Assembly: GCA_947499275.1 (NCBI GenBank)
Contig: CANMNM010000001.1
Location: 1-42,339 of the forward strand
Direction: 5' to 3'
DNA from: Actinomycetota bacterium
Lineage (GTDB): Bacteria > Actinomycetota > Actinomycetes > S36-B12
Length of the DNA: 42,339 bases
A model generated the notes under the pieces. That model searched no databases, was not told the origin of the DNA, and was given only the letters and a program-made list of their open reading frames with translations. Both the position numbers and the translations under genes were made by a program. Positions 1,905 to 23,780 of the stretch are shown here, one piece after another (the first letter of the stretch is position 1; each line of letters starts with the position of its first letter).

Positions 1905-2399
1905 CTAAGCCAACTGAGAAGATTTTCCCTGTAAATTGATGACCATCGGTTGATGCAGGATTCCCGCATACGTTTCTACTGGACCTTCCGGGTGCCACCC
2001 CAAATACTCGAAGAATCGAACATTGGGCAGTTGAATGTGCGCGTGCATGACCAACCCACCATTAGCCGACGCTTGAGCGACCGCCTCTTGCACAAGTTCA
2101 AAACCAAGGCGAGAGCTTCGGTGCGCCTTAAGAACCGCAAGCCGATCCCCCTGCCATTGCTCGTATCCAGCGTCAAGGGGATACAAGCGGACCGCTCCCA
2201 CGGTCAGCCCATTTATGACACCAACGAGGTGGGTCGTGCTCAGTTCACTATCTCGACTGTCCTCGTCCGTGTCTGTAAAGATTCCCTGCTCAACAACGAA
2301 TACGTCGCGTCGTACGTCAAAATGCTCACGTCGGCGCTGGCGATTATCAACAGTCACAATTCTGGTGATGTCTCCCTGGCTTCCGCTGGGGTTGGTCAA
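1905..2399 (-). CDS. GNAT N-acetyltransferase, MSMEG_0567/Sll0786-like
   Basis: The core reads VFVVEQG...AVRLYP...LAVLKAHRSSRLG...F. The TTG start overlaps the stop of the upstream radical SAM gene (TTGA). Its position next to the radical SAM gene matches Nit1C clusters. Confidence 0.7.
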   Translation of the reverse strand: MTNPSGSQGDITRIVTVDNRQRRREHFDVRRDVFVVEQGIFTDTDEDSRDSELSTTHLVGVINGLTVGAVRLYPLDAGYEQWQGDRLAVLKAHRSSRLGFELVQEAVAQASANGGLVMHAHIQLPNVRFFEYLGWHPEGPVETYAGILHQPMVINLQGKSSQLA

Positions 2400-3655
2400 G
2401 AATTACCCTTCAGAAAGGATTGCCGATCAGTGATTTGCAAGGGAGTGATTGAATTTTTACGCGGTTCAAGTGAGGCAAGCCCCGAGCATGCTTGGCAGCG
2501 GGCACATCCCGCTTTTGCGGTGGTGGCGTCCATCCCACGCATGGACATGTAGGCCTGCACTCGGCGATAGATGGGTTCAACGTATTCGCGTGATGGAGAA
2601 GGCCAATTTTCCATCAGCGATCCGGCGACCGGCTTAAGCGGCACCATAAACGGATAGACGCCTAGGTCAATAGCTCGCTTCGCGCCAGCTATCGTGATTT
2701 CTGGGTCTTCACCCATTCCAAGAATGACGTAGGTCGATACCTGACCTTCACCAAAGACAGCAACCGCACGTTCCCACGCAGCAAAGTACGACTCGATTCC
2801 GCTAGCAGCCTTTGCCGGGGCAACCCGTGCCAAAACCTGGGGATCAAAAGTCTCAACATGTATACCCACGGAATCGATCCCCATGTCGCCAACTTCATTG
2901 ATCACATCGAGCTTTAATGGGGGCTCAAATTGAACTTCGACGGGTAGCCCACTGGCCTCTTTGACGGCCTGTCCACATTTTGCGACATAGCGAGCTCCAC
3001 GATCTACCCCTCGCGAACTTCCCGTTGTCAACGTTGCATCAACAGCGCCATCAAGTTCCTTGGCAGCCACGGCAACTTCAGCGAGCATCTCCGGCGTCTT
3101 TTTGACGATTGTCCGCCCAGATTCAAGTGAGACGCCGATTCCACAAAAAGTGCATTGGTCAGCGTTACCCCAGTAGGCACATGTTTGGACGACAGTGCTC
3201 GCAAGCGAATCCAAATGCAGGAGCGCGATTTTCTCGTACGAGATCCCGTCTGCGGTTGTGAGATCGTAGAATCGCGGCCTGCGCTCCGCGCGTGCCGACG
3301 CTACGCGAAGCATTCCACGGTAAATTCCATAGCCGTCGTCTTCAGCTTTGAGCAAATAAGGGGAATCCTGCGATGTCGAATTCCCGGTTGGAGCCGTCAC
3401 CGGATAGCCTTCGATCCAGAGCATTCCCGAGTCTGTCGGGCCGGCGCCACCTGTTCGACGCTCCATCTCTGCCTCGACCCTTAAACCACGGGCCTGCACG
3501 TCCATGATCAGGCTACTGATATCCCATGATCCGAGTTGGCCTGAAATAACTCGGCCATCGGCCTCGGCGGATTCATAAACCTGCGCGTAATCCATAGTGT
3601 CGAGCACTAACTCTCCCCTCGTCTGTGGTGCACGTGTGATTCCAGCCAATATCAT
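2396..3655 (-). CDS. radical SAM protein, MSMEG_0568-like
   Basis: A Cys triad CAYWGNADQCTFCG is followed by TIM-barrel-like strands (TTGSS, GIHVETFDP, ILGMGE). A C-terminal CARCQAC motif is present. The gene is coupled to the GNAT gene. Confidence 0.7.
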   Translation of the reverse strand: MILAGITRAPQTRGELVLDTMDYAQVYESAEADGRVISGQLGSWDISSLIMDVQARGLRVEAEMERRTGGAGPTDSGMLWIEGYPVTAPTGNSTSQDSPYLLKAEDDGYGIYRGMLRVASARAERRPRFYDLTTADGISYEKIALLHLDSLASTVVQTCAYWGNADQCTFCGIGVSLESGRTIVKKTPEMLAEVAVAAKELDGAVDATLTTGSSRGVDRGARYVAKCGQAVKEASGLPVEVQFEPPLKLDVINEVGDMGIDSVGIHVETFDPQVLARVAPAKAASGIESYFAAWERAVAVFGEGQVSTYVILGMGEDPEITIAGAKRAIDLGVYPFMVPLKPVAGSLMENWPSPSREYVEPIYRRVQAYMSMRGMDATTAKAGCARCQACSGLASLEPRKNSITPLQITDRQSFLKGNS

Positions 3656-3713
3656 AGGAGAAATTTCGTGTCCGAAAGTAGAAATCCAAACAATTGTTTA
3701 TCCGGTGCGACGA

Positions 3714-4367
3714 TTAATCCATATCTGTGCGGATCGCCTCAGCCTCGTCTAGCCATTCCTGGCGATTGCTCATTTCCAAGACCAGTGAAGCCTGAGATTC
3801 GCTTCTCGGGTAAACCTCAATCCGGAAAATAGGAGACCCTGTGGCCGGGTCCACATCGACCGAGCGCACTAATCGGGTCTCAGAGCTCAGATGAAGGTCA
3901 ACCCACTGATGCGACATGGCGTATCCGAGGGTTCCACCGTCCGGGGTTTGGATGGGCGCCCATTTCTCGCCGGCTGCCCTAGCGCGGTCAGTGATCACCT
4001 CTGCCTCGTGATCAACGCCCTGGGCAAGCAAGACGCGGTAACGCTGGGCCAGCGCCGCATCCACTATGAGTTGGTCATCAAGATTGGTCAAGACAATTCC
4101 CTGGCTACTTGCCAAACCATGGAGCCGGGCAATTGCCGGTGTGCGGATACTCACTAGGTCATCGACGCTTTGGGCTCGCTCAGAAAGGAAATCTCCGAGC
4201 AGTCCAACGAGACGGACCGAGCGCTGATAGATGTCTGGGTCAACTTGAGCGAGTGGGTAAAGATTTCGTTCCGCTTCAGTGAATCGGATGACCAGGGCCG
4301 CCAGTGCGTCGCCATTCTCCACGCCCGCGCGGGGCACTTCATTCATTTCCATCGCCTCATTTTCCAT
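3714..4367 (-). CDS. hypothetical protein (no recognisable family)
   Basis: A 217-aa ORF heads the rSAM-GNAT transcription unit. It is divergent from the carbamate kinase gene. I recognise no motifs. Confidence 0.5.
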   Translation of the reverse strand: MENEAMEMNEVPRAGVENGDALAALVIRFTEAERNLYPLAQVDPDIYQRSVRLVGLLGDFLSERAQSVDDLVSIRTPAIARLHGLASSQGIVLTNLDDQLIVDAALAQRYRVLLAQGVDHEAEVITDRARAAGEKWAPIQTPDGGTLGYAMSHQWVDLHLSSETRLVRSVDVDPATGSPIFRIEVYPRSESQASLVLEMSNRQEWLDEAEAIRTDMD

Positions 4368-4378
4368 GCGAACACCAC

Positions 4379-4411
4379 ATTTACTATAGTATGATATTTA
4401 CTATAGTATGA
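4379..4411. promoter_or_regulatory. tandem operator-like repeat: two copies of atttactatagtatga, each containing the perfect palindrome TACTATAGTA
   Basis: The copies lie at 4379-4394 and 4396-4411 with a 17-nt period. They sit in the 63-nt divergent intergenic region between 3714-4367 (-) and 4431-5447 (+). Confidence 0.55.
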
Positions 4412-4430
4412 CGCCTCTGTCGGATAAAGA

Positions 4431-5447
4431 ATGGAAAGGAAATCTACATTGATGCTTTCCACACCGGCACCTTTGGCCGTCGTTGCCTTGGGAGGAAATG
4501 CGATCACTCGTGAGGGGCAGGACGGGACATACCCCGAAATGCTAGCCAACTGCCAAGAAATGGCCGCGTCCGTGTGCGCACTGCGCGAAGCCGGTTGGCG
4601 AGTAGTGATCACACATGGAAATGGTCCACAGGTAGGAAACCTGGCCATCCAGCAGCATGCCGGATCCGCTGAAGTACCTGCACAGCCGTTATTTGCCCTG
4701 GGAGCAATGACCCAAGGGTTAATTGGGCACCTGATCCAAATGGCGCTGCTCAGTGTCCACAATCAACAACTCGGACCGGTCGTTGGAGTAGTTACTCATG
4801 TGATTGTTGACCGCCAGGACGAAGCATTCGATCGGCCTTCGAAACCAATAGGTCCTTTTTATTCACTTCAGGAGGCCCAAGCGCGTTCAGACCTCACCGG
4901 GCATCCGATTATTGAAGATTCTGGGCGCGGGTACCGCATCATCGTTCCATCACCACGCCCTCAAAGAGTTGTGGAAGGGGACGCAATATCCCGACTCTCA
5001 CAAGATGGGTATCTCGTCGTCGCGGGTGGTGGCGGTGGGATCCCTGTCGTGGAAATTGATGGGACACTCGAGGGCATCGAGGCTGTTGTCGACAAAGATC
5101 GAAGTGCCGCACTACTCGCTACTTATCTGGAAGCCGACGCTCTCCTTCTCGTCACCGGTGTCGAATGCGTCCTCGCTGACTTCGGGAAACCTACCCAAAG
5201 GGAAATTCATTTGGCCGATGCGGCACAAATGCGGGAGTACTCGAGGCAGGGGCAATTTCCTGCAGGCAGCATGGGGCCCAAGGTCGAGGCTGCTCTCGAC
5301 TTTGTTGACGCTACTGCTGGATTCGCCGTTATCACCGACGCCTCGTCGATGGCTTCAGCTTTAGGAGCATTAGGAACAGGCGTAACCCCTGGGACACGGA
5401 TCGTTCGAGAGATCCTCGAGTTACCAAAGCAAGGAGCCCTTCAGTGA
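4431..5447 (+). CDS. arcC: carbamate kinase
   Basis: The motifs VVALGGNAI and VITHGNGPQVG and a C-terminal AAK fold are present, and the length is typical. The stop overlaps the fdrA start (GTGA). Confidence 0.88.
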   Translation: MERKSTLMLSTPAPLAVVALGGNAITREGQDGTYPEMLANCQEMAASVCALREAGWRVVITHGNGPQVGNLAIQQHAGSAEVPAQPLFALGAMTQGLIGHLIQMALLSVHNQQLGPVVGVVTHVIVDRQDEAFDRPSKPIGPFYSLQEAQARSDLTGHPIIEDSGRGYRIIVPSPRPQRVVEGDAISRLSQDGYLVVAGGGGGIPVVEIDGTLEGIEAVVDKDRSAALLATYLEADALLLVTGVECVLADFGKPTQREIHLADAAQMREYSRQGQFPAGSMGPKVEAALDFVDATAGFAVITDASSMASALGALGTGVTPGTRIVREILELPKQGALQ

Positions 5448-6985
5448 CTCTCATATTTACTATCAACATGTACCCAGACACTTATCTTGATTCGGTACTT
5501 CAGATGTCGGGAACGCGAGAGATGGAGCAGTCTGAAGGAGTTCAGTGGGCTTCGGCGGCGATGAGCACGGTCGCGAATATCGAGACTCTTATTTCCCGAG
5601 GATTCCCCAGCGGCGAACTCGAGGGGGCTGGCCCCGGTGACCTTTTCATTGCCGTTGAATCCCTTGATTCCAGCAGTGGGGAACGAGCCATCGAAAACGC
5701 CCACCGGGTGATGTTTGCCGCCCGCAATGAAGCTAATCCAATGGCCGAGGCGATCCCTACTTCCCTAGATGAAGCTCTCACTCGTCAACCAAACTCAAAT
5801 ATCGCCATCATTTCGGTGCCAGGGGAATATGCAGCTCTCGAGGCACACAAGGCTCTGGCCAAGGGCCTCGATGTTCTTCTTTTCAGCGATGGGGTCACCC
5901 TCGAAGATGAGATCGCCCTCAAGGACCATGCCGCCGCTCGAAACCTTCTCGTAATGGGACCGGGAGCCGGGACTGCTGCCCTTGCCGGGATCGGACTGGG
6001 CTTTGCAAACGTTGTGCGCCCAGGACCTGTGGGCGTGGTCGCCGCAGCGGGTACCGGAGCCCAGGAAGTGATGGCTCTACTCCACCGCTGGGGTGTCGGT
6101 GTATCTCACGTGATCGGGCTTGGCGGTCGCGACCTCAGTGACAAAATCGACGGGCGCATGGCCCGACTTGCCATTCGTGCCTTGCGAAACGACTCGCAGA
6201 CGAAGGTTATTCTTTTCGTGTCTAAACCTCCTAGTGAACGCGTTGCCAAAGAGGTCATGGCTCTGGCTGACGGCTCACCTATGGTGGCAGCTTTCATGGG
6301 TATAGATATGACCACTGCGACCCCGCCGGGTGTAACACTCGCCAACACTCTCGAGTCTGGCGTACTGCGCACCTTGGAGGTTCTCGGTGAAAAGCTTCCT
6401 GACACCTCGGCCATTGCAGGTCCAGATATCCCTTCAGCCTTGGCCAAGATTTCGGCTGATCGCACCCTAATCCGGGGCCTCTACTCCGGTGGAACCCTGT
6501 GCTACGAGGCTCTGGTTATTCTTGCCGAAACCTTTTCGTCACCGGTGTATTCCAACACACCTATTAATAAGAAACTCGGAATGCCAGCCCCTGCTGACGC
6601 CAGCATCCTGCTCGATCTCGGTGAGGAGGAGTACACGCGGGGACGACCACATCCGATGATTGACCTGGAAGCACGCATATCTTTTCTAGAAGAAGCAGGT
6701 GCGGACCCTCAGGTTGCCGTAATTCTCATGGACCTAGTCCTGGGGCATGGAGCTCACCCTGATCCAGCGGCCGTGTTCGCTCCGATCTGTCAGAAGATCA
6801 TGGAAGCCGGCGGGCCCCAAATCGTCGTATACGTATTGGGAACCGATTTAGACCCCCAGCATTACACGTCGCAAGTGGCTGCCCTTGCCAATGCTGGATG
6901 CCTGGTTCCTGCAACAAACGCCCGCGCCGCCATCCTCGCAGCGCACTTAGCAGACCGTAATTTGTCTCATGAAACACTGGCGTAG
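5444..6985 (+). CDS. fdrA: FdrA family protein (succinyl-CoA-synthetase-like fold)
   Basis: The protein is collinear with E. coli FdrA. Shared motifs include YPDTYLDSV, ISVPGEYAALEA, LLFSDGVTLEDEI, LLVMGPGAGT, GLGGRDLS, FVSKPP and GRPHPMID. Confidence 0.85.
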   Translation: MTLIFTINMYPDTYLDSVLQMSGTREMEQSEGVQWASAAMSTVANIETLISRGFPSGELEGAGPGDLFIAVESLDSSSGERAIENAHRVMFAARNEANPMAEAIPTSLDEALTRQPNSNIAIISVPGEYAALEAHKALAKGLDVLLFSDGVTLEDEIALKDHAAARNLLVMGPGAGTAALAGIGLGFANVVRPGPVGVVAAAGTGAQEVMALLHRWGVGVSHVIGLGGRDLSDKIDGRMARLAIRALRNDSQTKVILFVSKPPSERVAKEVMALADGSPMVAAFMGIDMTTATPPGVTLANTLESGVLRTLEVLGEKLPDTSAIAGPDIPSALAKISADRTLIRGLYSGGTLCYEALVILAETFSSPVYSNTPINKKLGMPAPADASILLDLGEEEYTRGRPHPMIDLEARISFLEEAGADPQVAVILMDLVLGHGAHPDPAAVFAPICQKIMEAGGPQIVVYVLGTDLDPQHYTSQVAALANAGCLVPATNARAAILAAHLADRNLSHETLA

Positions 6986-8157: not shown

Positions 8158-8543
8158 TGATCGTGATCGTGGTCATGATCATGGTCGTGCCCGTGGTCAT
8201 GATCATGGTCGTGCCCGGCTGGACGCAATGCAAGATCTCGCGCTCGACCTGACAGATCACTTGCAGTAACTAATTCACTGCTAATACTTACCTGTTCCAA
8301 GGCACTCAACCAGCACTGATAATAAGAGTATTCCTCGCCCGGTGTTTCCTGCTCCTCCCAAGTGGCGATCGCTGAAATTAATTCAGCGCGAAATTCTTCC
8401 CACGTGAAAGCACCTGACTCATGCAACGACATGACGAGTCCGAATGCTCGGCTCTGCCACGGCTCCTCAAAAACCAGTTCGCCATTGGACCTGGGTGGCG
8501 CTGCCGGACCATCAATGTCAAAATCAATCGTTGCAGTCATCAC
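8154..8543 (-). CDS. nitrile hydratase accessory (activator) protein with C-terminal His/Asp repeat tail
   Basis: The beta-subunit-like N-terminus reads [35 protein letters not shown]. The gene lies immediately downstream of NHase alpha with an ATGA overlap. The tail is [20 protein letters not shown]. Confidence 0.75.
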
Positions 8544-9816: not shown

Positions 9817-9876
9817 CAAACTCTCCTCATCTTTGGAAACCTGACGGCCCCTTAACCTCACGACTAAAGACCTGAT

Positions 9877-9915
9877 GCCTTGTGGGTGTTGAACAACGTC
9901 CAACACCCACAAGGC
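9877..9915 (-). other. 15-bp perfect stem-loop between the Sll0783-like gene and NHase beta
   Basis: The sequence is gccttgtgggtgttg-aacaacgtc-caacacccacaaggc. No U-tract follows on the transcribed (minus) strand. Confidence 0.5.
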
Positions 9916-9922
9916 CAAGCAA

Positions 9923-17993: not shown

Positions 17994-18993
17994 TTTTGGC
18001 TACCACGCTTTCACGGTTGCCCATCACGGTAAGTGATTCAATCGCCGCCGGCAATCCTCCCGTTAGCCACCACACAACAGTGTCATTGGAGGCACCGGTT
18101 ATGTGAGAAATTATCTCGTAAGCCGGGACACCGTATGTCGGGTCGAGAAGAACTCCAACGCGCCAGAATGCTTCATCTCGTGCAAACGCACCATTTTCAT
18201 CTAGCTCTTGATCATGGAATCCCACTGCGTCAATGATGGTGAAATTGGTCATCGATGGTGCCCCTCGTCCCAAAAGTTCTGAGGTTTGCGTTGACAAGTC
18301 AGTAATGACTCCACGCATCTCATCCACATTTCGGCTCACTGACACCCCAACAACTTTCCACATCGCTCCCAAGAAATCACTGCCCGCAAGGAACCCTGCA
18401 ATCGATGCACCAGACCCAACGGGAAGCACCACGGTTACTTGATTGGGATCCGTCCCCCTCACGTTGCATTGCTCATACAGTTCAATTGCAGCTCTGGCAA
18501 AGCCCAAGCCACCTACTGCAGTAGCACCACCGCGGGGAACGGGGTACGGCCTTCGGCCTTCGGCCGCCAACTCCGCTGCCCGACGTTCGACCTGTTCATT
18601 TATTAACGAGCGGTCTTGCCCGGTGAAGTGAATCACCGCGCCAGTTGCCTGCGCCATTAATAGGAGTACGGGCCAAGCCTCCATGGGATCTCCCGCCACC
18701 TCAATTTCACAATCAAGACCGACTGCCGCTGCCGCATGTGCACAGGCTCCAATAAAATTAGACCCTGCCGCTCCACCGGTAACGACAACATTGGAGTCGC
18801 ATTTGAGCGCGTCCGCCATGAGATATTCCAATGGCCTTACTTTGTTGCCGGCTAGCCCGAAACCCGTGAGATCGTCACGCTTGAGGAGAACGGGGGCAGC
18901 CGCGTCGATCTGCCACGGAGCGGCGAGGTGCAGGGGTGTCGGAAATTGACCCAGGTGAGTTCGAGGAAATCGATCAGTCGGATTCACTGGCAC
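17986..18993 (-). CDS. PLP-dependent enzyme, ACC deaminase/D-cysteine desulfhydrase family
   Basis: The motifs FPTPL, KRDDLTGFGLAGNKVRPLEYL (PLP lysine) and VTGGAAGSN are present. Confidence 0.75.
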   Translation of the reverse strand: MPVNPTDRFPRTHLGQFPTPLHLAAPWQIDAAAPVLLKRDDLTGFGLAGNKVRPLEYLMADALKCDSNVVVTGGAAGSNFIGACAHAAAAVGLDCEIEVAGDPMEAWPVLLLMAQATGAVIHFTGQDRSLINEQVERRAAELAAEGRRPYPVPRGGATAVGGLGFARAAIELYEQCNVRGTDPNQVTVVLPVGSGASIAGFLAGSDFLGAMWKVVGVSVSRNVDEMRGVITDLSTQTSELLGRGAPSMTNFTIIDAVGFHDQELDENGAFARDEAFWRVGVLLDPTYGVPAYEIISHITGASNDTVVWWLTGGLPAAIESLTVMGNRESVVAKNV

Positions 18994-20357
18994 CCATTTC
19001 GATCAGTGACAGGCTGTGTTTCAATCAGTGACAGACAGTGGTCGATAAGGGGCCCGGTGGTGGGCTCGGTATTCATCCACTCGAGCACGATTTCCTGTGA
19101 CACGTTGGCTGCTGCGGCAATCAATGCTGCAATCGATTGAATATCTTCGGTCCCATCTCTTTCAGAGAGAGCCACCTGCATCAATTCCTGCGCCTGATGT
19201 TTTCCCATCTGTGCAGACAGAGCTCGCAGAACCGACTCTGTGTTTCCCGTGCCTGAGGATTCGAGATTGCGCAGCATCTTCTCTGGATGAACGCGCAGCC
19301 CAGCAGCAAGTTCTGCCGCCACGCTAGCTGCCTTGCCTGTGCACATAGCGACCTCGGGCAACATGGCCCACTCGGCCTTCCAACTTCGGCCATCTCGTTC
19401 ATGACTGGACACGACACCCTCAACGAGAACTCCAGCCGCGGCACGCGCAATCCGCGACAAGGTGTCCAGGTGCTCACTCAATTCCGGGTTTTGCTTGTGC
19501 GGCATGGTGATGCTGCCGACTGCGTGGACATCTCTTGGTTCGCTGAGCTCCCCAATTTCTGGTCGAGCCAACTCGTAGATTTCGTTGCCGATCCGAGCAA
19601 GTGATGATGCCACCGTCGCCATGGTTGTCCCGAATTCTGCGATCCTGTCTCGGGTGGCCGTCCACGACATACCGGGGTCACCCAGTCCGAGAAGTTCGCA
19701 AAATCTGCTCCGTAGTTCCAAGCCCTGATCGGGGAAAAAAGCGAGTCCGCCGGTCGACCCGGCGAGCTGCCCCACGCTCCACCGCGTCCGCGCCCCGTCG
19801 ATCCGTTCAATGTGACGATTAATCTCGTCCGCCCACGTTGATACTTTGAATCCGAATGTCACCGGTGTACCCGGTTGGCCGTGGGTGCGACCAGCAATTG
19901 GAGTATCGCGGTGTTTCTTTGCCAATTCCACACACGAATCGCGTAGCTTTACAAGGTCCGCACGGATTAAGTCACCGCTATCGCGCATGATCATGCCAAA
20001 CCAGGTATCTGTCAGGTCTTGAACCGTAATTCCAAAGTACACGTACTCTCTGGACGAACTATTAAGAATCTGCTGTAGTCCACGGATGAGTCCCAGGGTC
20101 GAGTGTGATGTTCGCCGGGTTTCCGAACTGATGAAATCTTCATCTAGTAATTCCACCCGTGCTTTGCTCGCGATACCCTCGAATGCGGCGTCGGGGATAA
20201 TTCCTAGTTCGGCTTGGGCTTGTGCCAACGCCACGAGAATATTGAGCCAAGCCTGCAGTCGATGCTTCTGCTCAAAAATACGATCGAATTCAGGTGTACT
20301 CCATCCATGGGCATACATGGATGAAGTGGTCAAACGGTTGTCCACGCCGGGTCCCAT
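18984..20357 (-). CDS. adenylosuccinate lyase / 3-carboxymuconate cycloisomerase-like enzyme (fumarate lyase superfamily)
   Basis: The motifs GSITMPHKQNPELSE, TVQDLTDT and GRTHGQPGTPVTFG are present. An alternative start at 20318 would remove the 28-nt overlap with the upstream gene. Confidence 0.75.
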   Translation of the reverse strand: MGPGVDNRLTTSSMYAHGWSTPEFDRIFEQKHRLQAWLNILVALAQAQAELGIIPDAAFEGIASKARVELLDEDFISSETRRTSHSTLGLIRGLQQILNSSSREYVYFGITVQDLTDTWFGMIMRDSGDLIRADLVKLRDSCVELAKKHRDTPIAGRTHGQPGTPVTFGFKVSTWADEINRHIERIDGARTRWSVGQLAGSTGGLAFFPDQGLELRSRFCELLGLGDPGMSWTATRDRIAEFGTTMATVASSLARIGNEIYELARPEIGELSEPRDVHAVGSITMPHKQNPELSEHLDTLSRIARAAAGVLVEGVVSSHERDGRSWKAEWAMLPEVAMCTGKAASVAAELAAGLRVHPEKMLRNLESSGTGNTESVLRALSAQMGKHQAQELMQVALSERDGTEDIQSIAALIAAAANVSQEIVLEWMNTEPTTGPLIDHCLSLIETQPVTDRNGCQ

Positions 20358-21256
20358 GCACGTGCCAATTCATTGATCGCTTCACGGATGTCAGCCAAAG
20401 ATGCACCCCATGGCACGATCACCCGGCCATTCTCAATTTCTATTGACTCCTCGAGGAGGCAGCACTTTGTTATTGTTGCCATTCCCGAGGATTCTTCGCG
20501 TTCCCTTGGGCAGAAGGACACCATCGGCGGGCGGTCGCCATAGAACCACTCATGTATTTGTGCGGATCGTTCACATCCGACCAAGGTCCAATCTTCGCGA
20601 TCGGGACGTTGGTCTAGGTAGGAAGTGCGGGCACCAACAATTTCCGTGTCAGCGCCCCGGCAGGGAAGAAGGTAGTGCCCACTCGGAATTTTCGATCCAA
20701 ACGAATCCAACGTCAATGCATCGAGGTGCGCGATTATCGGGGGTAAGTCTTCGGCCACCTCGAGGAGCCGGCACACCTGATCAAACAGTTTCGCAGGAGT
20801 CGGGGGGACTACTTCAGTGACGTTGATGTTCAGTGGTTGTGGATTGAGAATAAAACTGACGTGGGAGTACAGGCCTTCAACAACGACGGCCTTCGCTTGA
20901 GGGGCGTGATTCGCTGCGGCGCGCGCTAGATTGGACGGAACTGCCGTGTCAATGCTTGCATCGACGACGAAGGAACACTCAGTCGGATCCGCCAGGATCT
21001 CGACACTCGTCACGGGCGAAAAGAGGGGAACGGGGTCCGCTCTCTGGACCGCTGCCAGCCAGACCCCATTCGGCTCATGGACCACGATGAAGCGAGTTCG
21101 TCGGTACACCTCTCTACCGGTGAAGTATTCAATGAGGGACTCCCCGGTGAAGGAGTCTGTCGAGTGGGTCACGGAGACACCTCGGTAGGCACTGGGAACC
21201 ACATTGAGCCGAGATCGAAGAAGGACTTGACCGGGGTCTGTCCTGGTTCCGCTCAC
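20330..21256 (-). CDS. hypothetical protein, Cys-rich C-terminal part, no recognisable family
   Basis: This 308-aa ORF is translationally coupled on the upstream side (ATGA-type overlap with the ComA-like gene). Its C-terminal Cys pattern is PCRG...GCERS...FCPRE...KCCLLE. Confidence 0.55.
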   Translation of the reverse strand: MSGTRTDPGQVLLRSRLNVVPSAYRGVSVTHSTDSFTGESLIEYFTGREVYRRTRFIVVHEPNGVWLAAVQRADPVPLFSPVTSVEILADPTECSFVVDASIDTAVPSNLARAAANHAPQAKAVVVEGLYSHVSFILNPQPLNINVTEVVPPTPAKLFDQVCRLLEVAEDLPPIIAHLDALTLDSFGSKIPSGHYLLPCRGADTEIVGARTSYLDQRPDREDWTLVGCERSAQIHEWFYGDRPPMVSFCPREREESSGMATITKCCLLEESIEIENGRVIVPWGASLADIREAINELARAWDPAWTTV

Positions 21257-22038
21257 CTATGCACTCCCGAGGACTGGGAAATGCCAACGGCAACCAACGC
21301 GGTATCAGCACGCAGTCCTAGACGAAGAGTTTGTAAGGGAAGTAGATCCTCAGGCGCGACGTTGCCCACATTCACTTCTGGTCCATGTGTATTGATGAAC
21401 CAGGCTTGCTGATCTTTTCGAGGCGCCTCAAAAAGCACACGATCGAGCCCTGCCGCCAGCAATGCCGCGTCGATGACTTCAGTTTGTGGAGTCCCGTGGG
21501 AGTCATAAACACCAACGGTGCCACTCTCTCGTCCTTCAGCCACAATGTATTCGGCCCCAGCAACCAAGTCACCCGTGATTTCCGAATGCCATTGAGCTGG
21601 AGTGAGAAGTCGTTCGGCACTCTTGTACCCGGTTTCGGCAAATACCCGAAATGACTGCGCCGATGTGCGAATGAGTTCCCACTTTTCTTCCATGCCCATA
21701 TCTGCTGCACCTCGAGAAACCTCAACCGCTGTAAATCCGGCCTGTTCCGCCCAATTGAGGCATTCACTTACACGTCCCTGCGACCAAGCGATCTCCAACA
21801 ATGTGCCTCCGAGGCAGGCTGTGATCCCGTGTTCGCGCAGGAGTCCAATTTTTGACGCCAAATGCTTTTCTACATAAGCAGTTCCCCAACCGAACTTCCA
21901 CACATCGGCAAACTCCGCGTACGAAGACAGGTGGCTTTCCATCGATCCGAGTGAAATTCCCTTATCCAGCACGTGTGTCAGCCCGATGGAGCGTGGCTTC
22001 TCAGGCAGAACCGGAAGGCTCAGGAAATTGTTCGACAT
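21253..22038 (-). CDS. phosphosulfolactate synthase (ComA) family protein
   Basis: The motifs LPEKPRSIGLTHVLDKG, DVWKFGWGTAYV and EVSRG fit the ComA TIM-barrel family. It is the first gene of the 7-gene minus-strand operon. Confidence 0.7.
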   Translation of the reverse strand: MSNNFLSLPVLPEKPRSIGLTHVLDKGISLGSMESHLSSYAEFADVWKFGWGTAYVEKHLASKIGLLREHGITACLGGTLLEIAWSQGRVSECLNWAEQAGFTAVEVSRGAADMGMEEKWELIRTSAQSFRVFAETGYKSAERLLTPAQWHSEITGDLVAGAEYIVAEGRESGTVGVYDSHGTPQTEVIDAALLAAGLDRVLFEAPRKDQQAWFINTHGPEVNVGNVAPEDLLPLQTLRLGLRADTALVAVGISQSSGVHR

Positions 22039-22121
22039 GTGTCCTATACTACGCGTACTTTCACTTTACGACATATCTACCCGTGAATATTCTGCGCATT
22101 GTTACTACATTGGAGGACTCC

Positions 22122-23129
22122 ATGGGCCCAAAGGACACTGCCCGAGCACAACTTGATGACGTTGCAGCAGCTGTGGCAGGTAATAGCGCCATTGCGGCCA
22201 AGCGCGAAATAGGTCTCGTCAGCGAGGCCTTAGGGTCGTCGGGTTTCGTCGAGGGTCCCGGGGATGACGGCGCGGCCATTGCGATTGGTCACACACTAGG
22301 AATCGTATGCGGAGAAGCAATGTGGCCACCATTTGTCGCGGCAGACCCTCGCGGGGCTGGAATAGCCGCAATTCTTGCCAACGTAAACGACGTTGCTGCG
22401 ATGGGTGGCCTGCCCTTGGCAATTGTTGACACCATAGCTGCGGATGAAGCCACAGCGCGTGAAATTCTCAGTGGTCTCGCCTATGCCTCATCCTTGTACC
22501 GAGTCCCCATTGTTGGCGGACACCTCACGCTCACAGATGGGCCGCCCAGCTTGTCTGCATTTGCGCTCGGCCACACTGACAATCTTTTATCGACCACGAA
22601 TGTTATGGCAGGTCAAGATCTTGTCGTGGCCGCGTGCATTGAAGGATCAATGCATCCAAAATTCCCGTTCTTTGCTTCTTTTACTGAACGAGGCGACAGT
22701 CTCGGTGATGACGTGCGTCTTCTGGCACAAATTGCCAAAGACGGCATTGCTGTCGCCGCCAAGGACATCAGCATGGCCGGACTTATCGGCTCACTGGCCA
22801 TGCTCTTGGAGTGGGGGTCTTTCGGTGCAGAGCTCAACCTCGACGTGCTCCCAAGGCCTGAAGGCGTCTCGCTGGCTGACTGGTGCAACTGTTTCCCATG
22901 CTTTGGGTTCATCATGTGCTGTGAACCATCCAGAACTAATGAATGCGTCGAAGTTTTCACTCGCACCGGTCTCGCAGCTGCCAAAGTTGGGTCCATAAAT
23001 GGCTCAGGCAGCATCGAGATCCTCGCTGGCGGAGAACGCCGAGAGGTAATGAATTTGCTTGAAGAGACGGTTACCGGCCTAGTTCGATCACCGAGTAACA
23101 GCTCAGCAGTTCCCGTGAAAAACACCTAG
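22122..23129 (+). CDS. AIR-synthase-related (PurM superfamily) protein, Sll0787/MSMEG_0566-like
   Basis: The motifs GPGDDGAAI, ANVNDVAAMGG and PIVGGH are present. The ATG at 22122 is preceded by GGAGGA; the tracked ORF start at 21852 would overlap the divergent ComA-like gene. Confidence 0.75.
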   Translation: MGPKDTARAQLDDVAAAVAGNSAIAAKREIGLVSEALGSSGFVEGPGDDGAAIAIGHTLGIVCGEAMWPPFVAADPRGAGIAAILANVNDVAAMGGLPLAIVDTIAADEATAREILSGLAYASSLYRVPIVGGHLTLTDGPPSLSAFALGHTDNLLSTTNVMAGQDLVVAACIEGSMHPKFPFFASFTERGDSLGDDVRLLAQIAKDGIAVAAKDISMAGLIGSLAMLLEWGSFGAELNLDVLPRPEGVSLADWCNCFPCFGFIMCCEPSRTNECVEVFTRTGLAAAKVGSINGSGSIEILAGGERREVMNLLEETVTGLVRSPSNSSAVPVKNT

Positions 23130-23249
23130 TTTTTTTATTTCTTGGCGCAAATATAACGAACTGGCTGACTTCGGGGTCCGAAATGTGTACTTTTGTGTAT
23201 ACACCAAGTCGTATAATGAATGTGCGGCTTACAATCATTGGAGATGAGA

Positions 23250-23780
23250 ATGCCCCCTATTACGATGGTATTCATACTTACAGGACTTGCAGTCTTCACG
23301 CAAGCGATGTTCTTTCTTGGCATAGGAGCAAGCGCTGAGGAAGGTAAAAAGAGCCCGATTATCCCAGTTGGATACATTTCTGTACTAGCAGGAATTGTCA
23401 ACCTGGTCGTCGGTGTTTACATTACCGTGGTCAGGCCGATAGAAGATGATCCTTCACTACTGCTCGCTGGCCTTATCGGATTCTACGGTTTGTTCTTCAT
23501 TGCCTTAGGTCTCGCGGAAATTCTGGGCCTTGACCTTCGGGTTATTGGCAACCTAGCTATTCCAACCGCGATCCTTCCGCTGTTTTGGATTAACTTCTTC
23601 TCAGGAAGCACAACCTTTACGTTGATCCTTATCTGGTGGACCATCGCGTTCCTCTCCATTACATTGACCACGTACGGGAAGCTGCAAGCACGGGCCTTGG
23701 GAGTCATCTTGATGCTCACCGCGGTCTTCACCTTCTTCCTCGTTCCAGTGTTCTTCGTCATGGGTTGGAACCTGCCTTAA
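23250..23780 (+). CDS. AmiS/UreI-like small polytopic membrane protein (putative amide/urea channel)
   Basis: The protein is about 176 aa with 6 predicted TM segments. The segment GFYGLFFIALGLAEILGLDLR resembles the AmiS FGLDWR region. GGAG lies 6 nt before the ATG at 23250, and a TATAAT box lies at about 23206. Confidence 0.45.
   Translation: MPPITMVFILTGLAVFTQAMFFLGIGASAEEGKKSPIIPVGYISVLAGIVNLVVGVYITVVRPIEDDPSLLLAGLIGFYGLFFIALGLAEILGLDLRVIGNLAIPTAILPLFWINFFSGSTTFTLILIWWTIAFLSITLTTYGKLQARALGVILMLTAVFTFFLVPVFFVMGWNLP

What the first reader, a model, noticed from the sequence alone, without database searches (positions are those of the whole stretch)
1905..23780. About 22 kb accessory island: a rebuilt Nit1C / MSMEG_0565-0572-type nitrogen-starvation cluster fused to nitrile-hydratase, carbamoyl-phosphate and C-N-lyase modules
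Twenty-four tightly packed genes form at least seven transcription units.
- (a) 4367->1905: orphan protein, radical SAM, GNAT.
- (b) 4431->8157: carbamate kinase, FdrA, GT4.
- (c) 12041->8154: flavoprotein, small protein, Sll0783-like, NHase beta/alpha/accessory.
- (d) Centre of the island: XRE-cupin regulator (+), OsmC (-) and NiCoT (+) as separate units.
- (e) 22038->14276: ComA-like, orphan, two lyases, PLP enzyme, DUF1116, DUF2877.
- (f) AIR-synthase-related gene, then an AmiS/UreI-like channel.
The seven non-nitrilase Nit1C members are all present but scattered over units a, b, c and f. They are interleaved with enzyme sets not normally described with that cluster. Many junctions are 1-10 nt overlaps, which suggests co-translation and a single pathway. 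I know of no described system with this composition. The chemistry implied is rSAM + PurM-like + flavoprotein + GNAT + GT, a nitrile-to-amide step, aspartate-type C-N lyases, and carbamoyl-phosphate-to-ATP. That points to synthesis or salvage of an unusual N-rich (nitrile, amide or ureido) metabolite.
Basis: partly seen in the sequence, partly recalled or inferred. Interest (0 to 1): 0.88.

Follow-up and report, generated by a model that had tools for sequence, protein, structure and literature searches.

The report
Coenzyme-M genes fused to Nit1C cluster
This 22-kb block is one conserved, mobile gene supercluster that joins a complete set of bacterial coenzyme-M-synthesis genes to the enigmatic "Nit1C" nitrogen-starvation genes, a cobalt nitrile hydratase and a carbamoyl-phosphate/ATP module. 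It suggests that coenzyme M, or a close relative, is used far more widely in bacteria than thought.

Summary
The genes are real, at the stated coordinates, and most family calls hold. The "ComA, orphan, two lyases, PLP enzyme" operon is a full homologue set of the bacterial coenzyme M pathway, XcbB-A-D-E-C. FdrA, DUF1116, DUF2877 and carbamate kinase correspond to E. coli AllF, AllG, AllH and AllK (oxamate carbamoyltransferase plus kinase). Only 4 of the 7 claimed Nit1C families pass their cut-offs. The AmiS/UreI call fails.

The composite is not a one-off. About 17 families travel together in more than 40 loci from Actinomycetota and Alphaproteobacteria, including cultured Nonomuraea, Planosporangium, Asanoa, Ruegeria, Hoeflea, Ensifer and Methylocystis. 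One slot holds a Nit6803 nitrilase, a Co-type nitrile hydratase or an Amidohydro_2 enzyme. All 11 XcbA-seeded neighbourhoods I looked up were this supercluster.

Best reading (inferred): the cluster makes its own sulfonate thiol and keeps it redox-cycled. It uses the thiol to salvage cyano- or nitrile-type nitrogen, which leaves through carbamoyl phosphate as NH3 plus ATP. The roles of the radical SAM, GNAT, PurM-like and GT4 proteins remain open. I found no paper describing this composite.

The parts
1905..2399 (-). GNAT acetyltransferase, MSMEG_0567/Sll0786 family
   Evidence: TIGR04045 88.4 bits, cut-off 68.45. Conserved in the loci.
2396..3655 (-). Radical SAM protein, MSMEG_0568 family
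   Evidence: TIGR04043 382.5 bits, cut-off 303.7. 57-95% identity across the loci. 41% identity to the Methylocystis Nit1C rSAM.
3714..4367 (-). 217-aa core protein of unknown function
   Evidence: No Pfam, NCBIfam or PDB sequence hit. AF2 model with pLDDT 83 has no PDB fold match. Conserved in actinobacterial loci. Profile-level homologues sit in the Methylocystis and Ensifer clusters (hhalign E 2e-11 and 3e-10).
4368..4430 (.). Divergent promoter region carrying a tandem 17-nt unit (ATTTACTATAGTATGAT x1.9) with palindromic core TACTATAGTA
   Evidence: The ACTATnGT box is conserved at this position from Nanopelagicales to Asanoa. It is about 100-fold enriched in the cluster's divergent promoters.
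4431..5447 (+). Carbamate kinase (AllK/ArcC type)
   Evidence: PRK12352 277 bits, cut-off 266. arcC 324 bits.
5444..6985 (+). FdrA/AllF-like protein (succinyl-CoA-synthetase-alpha-like)
   Evidence: NF004760 404 bits, cut-off 433. Homologues carry Pfam HMA_AllF_N plus Ligase_CoA.
6985..8157 (+). GT4 glycosyltransferase, MSMEG_0565 family
   Evidence: TIGR04047 375.9 bits, cut-off 259.85. The next-best hits are MshA and BshA.
8154..8543 (-). Nitrile hydratase accessory protein with a C-terminal (His-Asp)n tail
   Evidence: TIGR03889 75.8 bits, cut-off 46. Tail [20 protein letters not shown].
8540..9136 (-). Nitrile hydratase alpha subunit, cobalt type
   Evidence: TIGR01323 306 bits, cut-off 250. 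Motif VCTLCSCY read from the sequence.
9133..9918 (-). Nitrile hydratase beta subunit
   Evidence: TIGR03888 149.4 bits, cut-off 152.2.
9923..10411 (-). MSMEG_0572/Sll0783-family protein (weakly DsrE-like) with a single invariant Cys
   Evidence: TIGR04044 198.7 bits, cut-off 109.85. Pfam DsrE E 2.9e-4, below cut-off. The Cys is invariant in 37/37 sequences. The top PDB profile hit is a DsrE/DsrF-like protein, but E is 0.22.
10447..10701 (-). 84-aa conserved protein, in the position of MSMEG_0570/NitG
   Evidence: No family hit at E<=10. Present in every locus between the flavoprotein and Sll0783, at 40-99% identity.
10698..12041 (-). CoA-disulfide-reductase/NADH-oxidase-like flavoprotein with a single redox Cys
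   Evidence: Best HMM is CoA-disulfide reductase at 237 bits, below cut-off. Best PDB matches are NoxA-3, CoADR and CoA-persulfide reductase. Cys44 in motif YSPCGIP is invariant in 36/36 sequences.
12042..12193 (.). Divergent promoter between the flavoprotein operon and the regulator, with two ATnGTGTAyG boxes 21 bp apart
12194..12820 (+). XRE-HTH plus cupin regulator (PuuR-like)
   Evidence: HTH_3 plus Cupin_2. 59-64% identical to the regulators of the alphaproteobacterial clusters.
12770..13237 (-). OsmC-family peroxiredoxin-like protein
   Evidence: NCBIfam OsmC-like hits. Last gene of the Xcb-AllG(H) operon in Nonomuraea and Planosporangium.
13320..14405 (+). NiCoT nickel/cobalt transporter (lineage-specific insert)
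   Evidence: NicT 290 bits and TIGR00802 278 bits, both below their cut-offs. Present only in Nanopelagicales-type loci. Ruegeria and Hoeflea carry CbiM instead.
14276..15109 (-). AllH (DUF2877)
   Evidence: PF11392 74.8 bits, cut-off 25.
15106..16521 (-). AllG (DUF1116)
   Evidence: PF06545 215.5 bits, cut-off 27.
16539..17993 (-). XcbC-like aspartase/fumarase-superfamily enzyme (phosphosulfolactate to sulfoacrylate in Xanthobacter)
   Evidence: NF052535 412 bits, cut-off 575. 37% identity to Xanthobacter XcbC and 40% to NBB4.
17986..18993 (-). XcbE-like PLP enzyme
   Evidence: NF052537 212 bits, cut-off 450. 38% identity to Xanthobacter XcbE.
18984..20357 (-). XcbD-like adenylosuccinate-lyase-family enzyme (cysteine addition to sulfoacrylate in Xanthobacter)
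   Evidence: NF052536 549 bits, cut-off 600. 42% identity to Xanthobacter, 49% to NBB4 and 50% to Methylocystis.
20330..21256 (-). XcbA-family protein (DUF7714)
   Evidence: NF052538 339 bits, cut-off 150. PF24830 304 bits. Five Cys shared with the characterised Xanthobacter XcbA.
21253..22038 (-). XcbB/ComA phosphosulfolactate-synthase homologue
   Evidence: TIGR03849 227 bits, cut-off 280. Matches B. subtilis (1U83) and M. jannaschii (1QWG) PSL synthases at E 7e-46 and 4e-44.
22122..23129 (+). sll0787-type PurM/AIR-synthase-like protein
   Evidence: TIGR04049 257 bits, cut-off 321. RBS and ATG at 22122. Divergent from XcbB in cultured actinomycetes.
23220..23780 (+). Multi-TM membrane protein. 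Membership in the system is doubtful.
   Evidence: No AmiS/UreI or other credible family hit. Not found next to the PurM-like gene in other loci.
725..1863 (.). Left flanking repeat block: 3' end of ORF 435-875, terminator hairpin, fasciclin gene 970-1632, and a second copy of the ORF 3' end at 1691-1863
   Evidence: Direct repeats D1-D5, D8 and D10. Fasciclin Pfam hit.
23949..24724 (.). Right flanking repeat block: the same terminator hairpin plus a paralogous fasciclin gene (24038-24634)
   Evidence: 77-94% identical to 895-1664 at a spacing of about 23,060 bp. Fasciclin Pfam hit.

Best explanation
The block is one conserved, horizontally mobile metabolic supercluster, an 'extended Nit1C' system.

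Shown here:
- About 17 protein families travel together across two phyla. They are XcbB-A-D-E-C, AllG, OsmC, an XRE-cupin regulator, a CoADR-like flavoprotein, an 84-aa protein, the Sll0783 protein, GT4, FdrA/AllF, a 217-aa protein, a radical SAM protein, a GNAT and a PurM-like protein.
- One exchangeable slot holds a Nit6803-type nitrilase, a cobalt nitrile hydratase or an Amidohydro_2 enzyme. This window has the hydratase, with a NiCoT importer and a His/Asp-tailed chaperone.
- AllH and carbamate kinase mostly accompany the hydratase form.

Inferred mechanism:
1. The Xcb operon makes coenzyme M, or a very close sulfonate thiol, from PEP, sulfite and cysteine, as shown biochemically for Xanthobacter.
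2. The single-Cys flavoprotein, OsmC and the Cys-bearing Sll0783 protein cycle that thiol between thiol, disulfide and persulfide states.
3. A cyano group becomes bound to a heteroatom, most simply as S-cyano-CoM. It could arise by cyanolysis of the disulfide or be built by the rSAM/PurM-like/GNAT set.
4. The nitrile hydratase hydrates that cyano group to a carbamoyl group.
5. AllF/G/H transfer the carbamoyl group to phosphate. This is phosphorolysis of a carbamoyl thioester, analogous to the reverse succinyl-CoA synthetase reaction.
6. Carbamate kinase converts carbamoyl phosphate to NH3, CO2 and ATP.

Nitrilase-type sister clusters would release NH3 directly. The net effect is nitrogen salvage or detoxification of cyanide- or nitrile-type N on a self-made thiol carrier, under the XRE-cupin regulator.
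For: Composition.

Conservation of the whole set:
- It is kept, nearly in order, in 34 loci seeded with the Sll0783 protein, down to 40-60% identity. These include Asanoa, Acidimicrobiia, Nocardioides and Propionibacteriaceae.
- All 11 neighbourhoods seeded with XcbA homologues are this supercluster: Nonomuraea, Planosporangium, Ensifer, Ruegeria, Hoeflea, Sphingobium, a marine Tara contig and three metagenome contigs.
- The Methylocystis plasmid carries Xcb, OsmC, XRE-cupin, FdrA, GT4, AllG and flavoprotein-small protein-Sll0783. These sit next to PGAP-named Nit6803 nitrilase, MSMEG_0568 rSAM, MSMEG_0567 GNAT and sll0787 proteins.

Xcb identity:
- All five families are present, in the same B-A-D-E-C order as CoM-using M. 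chubuense NBB4. Identity to the characterised Xanthobacter enzymes is 34-42%.
- XcbA Cys residues are conserved, including in Xanthobacter.
- XcbB matches solved phosphosulfolactate synthases at E 1e-44 to 1e-46.
- The pathway chemistry is from PMC9457059.

Thiol theme:
- Cys44 of the flavoprotein and the single Cys of Sll0783 are invariant.
- A CoADR-like flavoprotein also sits next to the NBB4 xcb operon.

Carbamoyl module: AllFGH is the oxamate carbamoyltransferase and YbcF is the catabolic carbamate kinase (PMC11326118 and PMC9843812).

Logic for a heteroatom-bound nitrile: carbamate kinase can only use carbamoyl phosphate. A hydratase product can feed it only if the nitrile carbon sits on a leaving heteroatom.

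Cobalt: CTLCSCY motif, NiCoT or CbiM, and the (HD)n chaperone tail.

Phenotypes of canonical Nit1C clusters fit an N-plus-redox role: cyanide assimilation (PMC7815647), GlnR-dependent peroxide resistance and a raised NADPH/NADP ratio (PMC6039565).

Regulation: shared promoter boxes and a regulator 59-64% identical across phyla suggest co-regulation.
Against: - No chemistry was measured. CoM production is inferred from homology only.
- XcbB, XcbC, XcbD and XcbE score below NCBIfam's equivalog cut-offs.
- The scheme gives no necessary role to the radical SAM, GNAT, PurM-like, GT4, 217-aa and 84-aa proteins, which are the most conserved core.
- AllF and AllG occur without AllH or carbamate kinase in the nitrilase-type Methylocystis cluster and in the compact locus L050. 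Their role may therefore not be classical carbamoyl transfer.
- Amidohydro_2-type clusters have carbamate kinase without a hydratase.
- The Nit1C descriptions I read (nitA-H, MSMEG_0565-0572) list no xcb genes. I did not inspect those loci here.
- NCBI tags these families 'biosynthetic process'.
- No substrate transporter is conserved.
- The promoter-box enrichment is confounded by AT-rich intergenic DNA and by shared ancestry.
Confidence: 0.4

Rival explanations
1. Biosynthetic gene cluster. The Xcb enzymes supply a sulfonate-thiol building block. The GT4, GNAT, PurM-like, radical SAM and carbamoyl-transfer enzymes elaborate it into a new N- and S-rich metabolite, cofactor or low-molecular-weight thiol comparable to mycothiol or bacillithiol. 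The flavoprotein is its disulfide reductase and OsmC its peroxidase. The nitrile enzyme performs a maturation or salvage step. Carbamate kinase runs towards carbamoyl phosphate.
For: - The GT4's next-best HMM hits are MshA and BshA, and a GNAT parallels MshD.
- The cluster has a CoADR-like reductase with an invariant Cys, plus OsmC.
- NCBI annotates the Nit1C families as 'biosynthetic process'.
- The gpr cluster gives peroxide resistance and raises NADPH/NADP.
- No uptake transporter is conserved.
- This reading gives the most conserved core proteins a job.
Against: - The host already has MshA, so it presumably makes mycothiol.
- The carbamate kinase and AllFGH homologues are catabolic and ATP-yielding where studied.
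- Nitrilase, hydratase and amidohydrolase are interchangeable, which is more typical of a degradative step.
- Canonical clusters are induced by N starvation or cyanide and are needed to grow on cyanide.
- The cluster has no deacetylase or Cys-ligase equivalents of MshB/MshC or BshB/BshC.
Confidence: 0.3
2. The Xcb-like operon does not use sulfite. The ComA homologue adds another nucleophile, such as cyanide, to PEP. The lyases then give 3-cyanoacrylate-type or mercaptonitrile-type intermediates, and these are the true substrates of the nitrilase or hydratase.
For: - The best known substrates of Nit6803-family nitrilases are alpha,beta-unsaturated nitriles. Fumaronitrile gives 3-cyanoacrylate, the cyano analogue of sulfoacrylate.
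- Four of the five Xcb homologues fall below the equivalog cut-offs.
Against: - XcbB is strongly similar to two solved, bona fide phosphosulfolactate synthases.
- Supercluster Xcb proteins do not form a clean clade apart from the CoM-making NBB4 and Xanthobacter enzymes.
- XcbA Cys residues are conserved with the characterised enzyme.
- No precedent for this chemistry was found.
Confidence: 0.07
3. An ordinary aliphatic nitrile/amide catabolic island (nitrile hydratase plus cobalt transporter) that happens to lie beside unrelated Nit1C, CoM and allantoin-type genes, with several independent functions.
For: - A Co-type hydratase with accessory protein and metal transporter is a classic catabolic unit.
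- The hydratase and NiCoT are the variable parts of the cluster.
Against: - No amidase is present.
- The hydratase sits inside the flavoprotein-small protein-Sll0783 operon with 4-nt overlaps.
- The same combination recurs in two phyla with different gene orders and different cobalt transporters.
- No allantoin genes are in the window.
Confidence: 0.05

Closest known systems
Nit1C / MSMEG_0565-0572 ('gpr') / sll0783-0790 nitrogen-starvation cluster
   Same: It shares the radical SAM, GNAT, PurM-like, GT4 and Sll0783/MSMEG_0572 families. It also shares the flavoprotein-small protein-Sll0783 layout. The biochemical function of the known cluster is unresolved, but it is linked to N starvation, cyanide assimilation and redox balance.
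   Different: - This window has no Nit6803 nitrilase. A cobalt nitrile hydratase takes that slot.
- The flavoprotein and the small protein are not the TIGR04046 and TIGR04042 families.
- The window adds a five-gene Xcb operon, AllF/G/H, carbamate kinase, OsmC and an XRE-cupin regulator.
- The regulator types reported for canonical clusters (GlnR, NtcA, sigma-54 NitA) are replaced.
Bacterial coenzyme M biosynthesis operon xcbABCDE of Xanthobacter autotrophicus Py2, Mycolicibacterium chubuense NBB4 and Nocardioides JS614
   Same: All five enzyme families are present in one operon. The order B-A-D-E-C is identical to NBB4. The xcb genes are co-located with a pyridine-nucleotide-disulfide oxidoreductase, and in NBB4 that enzyme is also CoADR-like.
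   Different: - Identity to the characterised enzymes is only 34-42%, and scores fall below the equivalog cut-offs.
- There is no alkene monooxygenase, no epoxyalkane:CoM transferase and no 2-KPCC. The partners are Nit1C-type and carbamoyl-phosphate enzymes instead.
- The hosts are not known alkene oxidisers.
E. coli allFGH-allK (fdrA-ylbE-ylbF-ybcF): oxamate carbamoyltransferase plus catabolic carbamate kinase
   Same: The same four protein families are present. By analogy, they would release a carbamoyl group as carbamoyl phosphate and then as NH3 plus ATP.
   Different: - The genes are split over two operons: CK-AllF-GT4 and Xcb-AllG-AllH.
- No allantoin or oxalurate-forming genes are present.
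- AllF and AllG occur without AllH or the kinase in some sister clusters, so the substrate is almost certainly not oxalurate.
Cobalt-type nitrile hydratase operons with a NiCoT-type cobalt transporter (e.g. Rhodococcus NhlF; recalled from my own knowledge, not tested here)
   Same: Alpha, beta and accessory genes, the CTLCSCY cobalt motif, and an adjacent NiCoT transporter.
   Different: No amidase is present. The hydratase is embedded in a thiol/Nit1C operon and is interchangeable with a nitrilase or an Amidohydro_2 enzyme in sister clusters.

Membership tests
Nit1C / MSMEG_0565-0572 cluster | Nit6803-family nitrilase (TIGR04048) | tested here: not met
   None of the 24 products, nor the flanking ORFs, hits a nitrilase. 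Gap ORFs in the hydratase-less loci are Amidohydro_2, not nitrilase. Sister clusters in Methylocystis, Ensifer and Sphingobium do carry the nitrilase.
Nit1C / MSMEG_0565-0572 cluster | MSMEG_0568 radical SAM, MSMEG_0567 GNAT, MSMEG_0572/Sll0783 and MSMEG_0565 GT4 families above curated cut-offs | tested here: met
   Scores against cut-offs: 382/304, 88/68, 199/110 and 376/260 bits.
Nit1C / MSMEG_0565-0572 cluster | sll0787-family AIR-synthase-like protein (TIGR04049) | tested here: inconclusive
   TIGR04049 is the best hit, but at 257 bits it is below the cut-off of 321.
Nit1C / MSMEG_0565-0572 cluster | MSMEG_0569-family flavoprotein (TIGR04046) and MSMEG_0570-family small protein (TIGR04042) | tested here: not met
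   The flavoprotein's top 25 hits are CoADR, Nox and other pyridine-nucleotide-disulfide oxidoreductases, with no TIGR04046. The 84-aa protein has no hit even at E<=10. PGAP likewise names the Methylocystis orthologues only 'FAD-dependent oxidoreductase' and 'hypothetical protein'.
Bacterial coenzyme M biosynthesis (XcbA-E) | All five enzyme families encoded together | tested here: met
   The best NCBIfam hit of each product is XcbB/ComA, XcbA, XcbD, XcbE or XcbC. They form one operon, 22038->16539, in the same order as NBB4.
Bacterial coenzyme M biosynthesis (XcbA-E) | Scores above the curated equivalog cut-offs | tested here: inconclusive
   XcbA family 339 bits against a cut-off of 150 (met). 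XcbD 549/600, XcbC 412/575, XcbE 212/450 and ComA 227/280 (all below). Identity to the Xanthobacter enzymes is 34-42%.
Bacterial coenzyme M biosynthesis (XcbA-E) | Product is 2-mercaptoethanesulfonate | not testable with these tools
   This needs enzymology or thiol metabolomics.
Bacterial coenzyme M biosynthesis (XcbA-E) | Co-location with CoM-dependent alkene/epoxide enzymes (alkene monooxygenase, epoxyalkane:CoM transferase, 2-KPCC) | tested here: not met
   None is present in the window or in the sister loci.
Oxamate carbamoyltransferase AllFGH plus carbamate kinase AllK | AllG (PF06545), AllH (PF11392), FdrA/AllF and carbamate kinase all present | tested here: met
   AllG 215 bits and AllH 75 bits, both above cut-off. 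Carbamate kinase PRK12352 277 bits against 266. FdrA 404 bits, slightly below its cut-off of 433.
Oxamate carbamoyltransferase AllFGH plus carbamate kinase AllK | Context of allantoin/oxalurate catabolism and a contiguous allFGHK operon | tested here: not met
   The genes are split between units b and e. No allantoinase, ureidoglycolate dehydrogenase or similar gene is in the window.
Cobalt-type nitrile hydratase | Alpha, beta and accessory subunits plus the CTLCSCY metal motif | tested here: met
   Alpha 306 bits against 250. Beta 149.4 bits against 152.2 (marginal). Accessory 76 bits against 46. Motif VCTLCSCY.
AmiS/UreI amide/urea channel (for 23220-23780) | Match to the AmiS/UreI family model | tested here: not met
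   No such hit in Pfam at E<=1 or in NCBIfam at E<=10. There is only a sub-threshold DUF981 hit.
DsrE/TusD-like sulfur-transfer fold (for the Sll0783 protein) | Significant sequence or structure match, with the conserved Cys | tested here: inconclusive
   Pfam DsrE 21.4 bits, cut-off 22.7. The profile-versus-PDB top hit is a DsrE/DsrF-like protein with the Cys aligned, but E is 0.22. The single-sequence AF2 model failed with pLDDT 33. The Cys is invariant in 37/37 sequences.

The most novel reading that the evidence does not exclude
Coenzyme M, or a CoM-derived sulfonate thiol, is not a rarity of methanogens and a few alkene-oxidising bacteria. It would be the dedicated thiol cofactor of a widespread bacterial system, the extended Nit1C supercluster, found in soil actinomycetes, methanotroph plasmids, rhizobia, marine roseobacters and freshwater plankton. 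In that system, cyano-nitrogen is carried as S-cyano- and then S-carbamoyl-CoM. It is cashed in as carbamoyl phosphate, giving NH3 plus ATP. This would finally assign a chemistry to Nit1C. It would also imply that alkene oxidisers borrowed their xcb operon from this older system.
Probability: 0.2. Interest if true: 0.9.

Novelty: new variant of a known kind. Interest (0 to 1): 0.78.

Why it matters
- Nit1C has been known since 2005. It is essential for bacterial growth on cyanide and for nitrogen-starvation redox fitness, yet its chemistry is still called obscure (PMC7815647).
- The bacterial CoM pathway (2022) is thought to exist in only a few alkene degraders.
- This work shows that the two are physically and evolutionarily linked in many bacteria. 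They come with a dedicated single-Cys flavoprotein, OsmC, a carbamoyl-phosphate/ATP module and interchangeable nitrile enzymes.
- That turns both puzzles into concrete experiments on cultured strains: thiol metabolomics, enzyme assays with S-cyano- and S-carbamoyl-CoM, and knock-outs.
- It could reveal a new route of cyanide/nitrile nitrogen assimilation, or a new thiol cofactor, in abundant aquatic and soil bacteria.

Tried and rejected
- Nitrilase in hydratase-less loci. I looked for a nitrilase hidden in the gaps of these loci. The gaps hold a conserved Amidohydro_2 protein instead.
- 84-aa protein. I tested it against TIGR04042, and the 217-aa and membrane proteins against any family, at E<=10. 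Nothing was found.
- 217-aa protein. Only 16 homologues were found by word search. The AF2 model is good (pLDDT 83), but there is no PDB fold match (best E 0.23) and no PDB sequence match.
- Sll0783 fold. The single-sequence AF2 model failed (pLDDT 33). The phmmer hits to DARPins are compositional noise. The profile hit to a DsrE-like structure is not significant.
- Common operator. The exact TTACTATAGTAT box occurs only at 4381 and 4398 in the window. Looser boxes are enriched in the cluster's promoters across loci, but they may be extended -10 elements. I did not claim GlnR boxes.
- Compositional island signal. GC is 0.53-0.57 inside against 0.49-0.56 outside, so there is no signal.
- RNA elements. 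Rfam finds only a tRNA-Thr.
- Lone XcbD-like hits. The hits in Variovorax and Streptomyces rimosus replicons are isolated adenylosuccinate-lyase paralogues, not clusters.
- Simple rule rejected. I considered 'AllG/AllH/CK occur only with the hydratase'. Methylocystis (nitrilase type) has AllF and AllG, and Amidohydro_2 types can have the kinase. Only AllH and the kinase track mostly with the hydratase.
- Literature. Searches for the composite found nothing.

Full report
**Observation**

They are tightly packed. Seven junctions overlap by 4 nt, one by 1 nt, and two by 8 and 10 nt.

HMM searches confirm most family calls:
- MSMEG_0567-type GNAT (1905-2399).
- MSMEG_0568 radical SAM (2396-3655).
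- Carbamate kinase (4431-5447).
- FdrA (5444-6985).
- MSMEG_0565 GT4 (6985-8157).
- Nitrile hydratase accessory, alpha and beta (8154-9918).
- Sll0783/MSMEG_0572 protein (9923-10411 after start correction).
- A pyridine-nucleotide-disulfide flavoprotein (10698-12041).
- XRE-cupin regulator, OsmC and NiCoT.
- DUF2877 and DUF1116.
- Two fumarase-superfamily lyases flanking a PLP enzyme.
- A ComA homologue and a PurM-like protein (22122-23129 after start correction).

Three claims fail:
- The flavoprotein is CoA-disulfide-reductase/NADH-oxidase-like, not the MSMEG_0569 family.
- The 84-aa protein matches nothing, including TIGR04042 at E<=10.
- The last ORF (23220-23780) has no AmiS/UreI signal and is not conserved next to the cluster elsewhere.

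The operon 22038->16539 hits, gene by gene, the NCBIfam models for the bacterial coenzyme M pathway:
- ComA/XcbB: 227 bits.
- XcbA family/DUF7714: 339 bits, above its cut-off.
- XcbD: 549 bits, cut-off 600.
- XcbE: 212 bits.
- XcbC: 412 bits.

In Xanthobacter autotrophicus Py2 these five enzymes convert PEP, sulfite and cysteine to CoM. The intermediates are phosphosulfolactate, sulfoacrylate, 3-sulfopropionyl-cysteine and sulfoethanethioaldehyde (PMC9457059).

- The window proteins are 34-42% identical to the characterised Xanthobacter enzymes. They are 36-52% identical to those of the CoM-using Mycolicibacterium chubuense NBB4, whose operon has the same order B-A-D-E-C.
- XcbB matches two solved phosphosulfolactate synthases at E of about 1e-45.
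- Five cysteines of XcbA are conserved from the window to Xanthobacter.
- FdrA, DUF1116, DUF2877 and carbamate kinase are the families now known in E. coli as AllF, AllG, AllH (oxamate carbamoyltransferase) and AllK (PMC11326118, PMC9843812; Pfam names).

**Is the composite real or accidental?**

I scanned one genome per GTDB species with the Sll0783 protein as seed. This returned 34 loci. The window itself matches a freshwater 'Ca. Nanopelagicales'-type MAG at 100%.

A tblastn matrix of all window proteins against these loci shows the whole set in nearly the same order: XcbB-A-D-E-C-AllG-AllH-(NiCoT)-OsmC | XRE-cupin | flavoprotein-84aa-Sll0783-(NHase) | GT4-FdrA-CK | 217aa-rSAM-GNAT. Protein identity falls as low as 40-60%. 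The carriers include Asanoa hainanensis, Acidimicrobiia, Ilumatobacteraceae, Nocardioides, Propionibacteriaceae and unclassified MAGs.

I then seeded independently with XcbA. The family is large: 2,166 and 1,269 90%-clusters were found in two searches. All 11 neighbourhoods retrieved were this supercluster. They are Nonomuraea sediminis, Planosporangium flavigriseum, Ensifer canadensis, Ruegeria sp. THAF57, Hoeflea sp., Sphingobium chungbukense, an abundant marine contig and three metagenome contigs.

On a Methylocystis iwaonis plasmid, the Xcb operon lies divergent from genes that PGAP itself names:
- Nit6803-family nitrilase.
- MSMEG_0568 radical SAM.
- MSMEG_0567 GNAT.
- sll0787 AIR-synthase-like protein.

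The rest of that cluster follows: OsmC, cupin regulator, a 217-aa-type protein, an FdrA-like protein, MSMEG_0565 GT4, DUF1116, and Sll0783 preceded by a flavoprotein and a small protein.

The profile of the 217-aa orphan detects the alphaproteobacterial counterparts (hhalign E 2e-11 and 3e-10).

**Architecture that emerges**

About 17 families form a core. The most compact example is L050.

One slot is exchangeable:
- Nitrilase in Methylocystis, Ensifer and Sphingobium.
- Cobalt nitrile hydratase in most loci.
- A conserved Amidohydro_2 protein, seen only in loci that lack the hydratase.

Other variable parts:
- The hydratase is cobalt-type (VCTLCSCY). Its accessory protein ends in an (HD)n tail.
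- The metal importer varies: NiCoT here, CbiM in Ruegeria and Hoeflea.
- AllH and carbamate kinase accompany hydratase-type clusters. They are missing from the fully visible nitrilase-type Methylocystis cluster and from L050. AllF and AllG are core.

Invariant residues and neighbours:
- The flavoprotein's Cys44 (YSPCGIP) and the single Cys of the Sll0783 protein are invariant.
- A CoADR-like flavoprotein also sits beside the xcb operon of NBB4.
- In cultured actinomycetes, OsmC is the last gene of the Xcb-AllG(H) operon. NiCoT is therefore a lineage-specific insertion.

**Regulation**

- The XRE-cupin regulator is 59-64% identical between the window and Alphaproteobacteria.
- The divergent promoter at 4368-4430 carries a tandem palindromic box (TTTACTATAGTATGA twice).
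- Related boxes (ACTATnGT, TTWACTWT, ATnGTGTAyG) are conserved at the three divergent promoters across taxa. They are 90- to 320-fold denser there than elsewhere in the loci.
- This is suggestive of co-regulation. It is confounded by AT-rich intergenic DNA, overlap with -10 elements and shared ancestry.

**Island status**

- GC content gives no signal.
- The cluster is bracketed by about 0.8-1 kb direct repeats: 895-1664 against 23949-24724, at 77-94% identity. Each holds a fasciclin gene and a terminator hairpin. There is also a duplicated fragment, 725-897 against 1691-1863.
- The cluster lies in a housekeeping region with tRNA-Thr, cysS, ispDF, carD, phoU and mshA.
- Related MAGs carry the cluster in other contexts. 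The Sphingobium copy is flanked by transposase, integrase and resolvase genes. The Methylocystis copy is on a plasmid. Mobility is therefore well supported.

**Mechanism**

Shown:
- Gene content, conservation and module swapping.
- Invariant cysteines.
- Homology to biochemically defined enzymes.

Inferred:
1. The Xcb operon makes CoM or a very close sulfonate thiol.
2. The single-Cys flavoprotein, OsmC and the Sll0783 protein manage its redox states.
3. The alternation of nitrilase and hydratase implies a genuine cyano intermediate.
4. Carbamate kinase accepts only carbamoyl phosphate. The hydratase product can reach it only if the nitrile carbon is bound to a leaving heteroatom. With a self-made thiol at hand, S-cyano-CoM going to S-carbamoyl-CoM is the simplest candidate.
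5. AllF is succinyl-CoA-synthetase-alpha-like. Phosphorolysis of a carbamoyl thioester to carbamoyl phosphate plus thiol would mirror the reverse succinyl-CoA synthetase reaction.
6. Carbamate kinase then yields NH3, CO2 and ATP. A nitrilase would give NH3 and CO2 directly, which would explain why those clusters can lack AllH and the kinase.

This scheme fits what is known of canonical Nit1C clusters. They are linked genetically to cyanide assimilation, and the best substrates of their nitrilase are unsaturated nitriles (PMC7815647). They also confer GlnR-dependent peroxide resistance and a raised NADPH/NADP ratio (PMC6039565).

I rate the parts as follows:
- 'One functional supercluster': about 0.9.
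- 'Xcb module makes CoM or a close thiol used by the rest': about 0.6.
- The specific S-cyano/S-carbamoyl route: about 0.2.

The main weakness is that the most conserved proteins have no necessary role in the scheme. These are the radical SAM, GNAT, PurM-like, GT4, 217-aa and 84-aa proteins. That keeps a biosynthetic reading alive at about 0.3. In that reading the cluster makes a new sulfonated thiol or cofactor, with the GT4 and GNAT paralleling MshA/BshA and MshD.

**Comparison and novelty**

The system is a relative of Nit1C. It fails membership in the strict sense: no nitrilase here, and neither TIGR04046 nor TIGR04042. It contains an Xcb-type operon outside any alkene-oxidation context. 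It contains AllFGH/K homologues outside any allantoin context.

Searches of the paper library found no description of this combination. The most recent Nit1C enzymology I read still calls the cluster's function obscure.

I classify it as a new variant of a known kind. It has high interest because it links two open problems and makes them testable in cultured strains.

Noticed in passing
window 725-1863 and 23949-24724: The island is bracketed by direct repeats 77-94% identical, each holding a fasciclin-domain gene and a shared terminator hairpin (GAAACCCGGTTACCTC...GAGGTAACCGGGTTTC). There is also a duplicated 3' fragment of ORF 435-875 at 1691-1863. The layout X-term-F-X'-[island]-term-F' would fit acquisition by a single homologous crossover from a relative, and would allow loss by recombination.
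   Followed up: partly
window 25582-25654: tRNA-Thr (anticodon TGT) lies about 1.8 kb beyond the right end of the island. It is the only Rfam or ARAGORN hit in the window.
   Followed up: no
window 8157-8217: A 12/24-nt tandem repeat encodes the C-terminal [20 protein letters not shown] tail of the nitrile hydratase accessory protein. This is a likely metal-binding (cobalt chaperone) tail and could vary in length.
   Followed up: partly
window 14276-14405: The convergent genes NiCoT (+, ends at 14405) and AllH (-, ends at 14276) overlap by 130 nt. XRE-cupin and OsmC also converge, with a 51-nt overlap (12770-12820).
   Followed up: no
window 26884-42272: The rest of the window is core actinobacterial housekeeping: SpoU methylase, cysS, ispF, ispD, carD, a SenX3/RegX3-like two-component pair, phoU, mshA (TIGR03449 617 bits), YbjN, a gpm-like phosphatase, an amino-acid permease, dtd and fur. 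The host therefore also encodes the first mycothiol enzyme.
   Followed up: partly
L047 8054-10489 (Methylocystis iwaonis plasmid NZ_AP027143.1, 206053-208488): Cytochrome bd ubiquinol oxidase genes (cydAB) lie directly next to the nitrilase-type supercluster. In other bacteria this oxidase type is cyanide-insensitive (recalled from my own knowledge).
   Followed up: no
L040 6771-8165 (M. chubuense NBB4 plasmid pMYCCH.02): The xcb operon of this known CoM user is divergent from a CoADR-like flavoprotein. It scores 373 bits to TIGR03385 and is 33% identical to the window flavoprotein. This hints at a conserved partnership between xcb and a CoADR-like reductase.
   Followed up: partly
L044 and L046 (Ruegeria sp. 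THAF57, Hoeflea sp.): These marine alphaproteobacterial versions lack the XcbE-type PALP gene inside the Xcb operon. Ruegeria has a Cys/Met-metabolism PLP enzyme at the end of the AllG-AllH operon instead, which may be a non-orthologous replacement. Both carry DUF1097 and CbiM genes inside the cluster.
   Followed up: no
L001, L008, L011, L012, L033 record titles: Several lake-metagenome MAGs that carry this actinobacterial cluster are deposited under the organism name 'Bifidobacterium breve'. This is evidently a mislabel.
   Followed up: no
window 23807-23844: An 18-nt tandem repeat (TCTTATCTGATAGCACAG x2.1) lies just downstream of the non-conserved membrane-protein ORF, at the inner edge of the right flanking repeat.
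   Followed up: no
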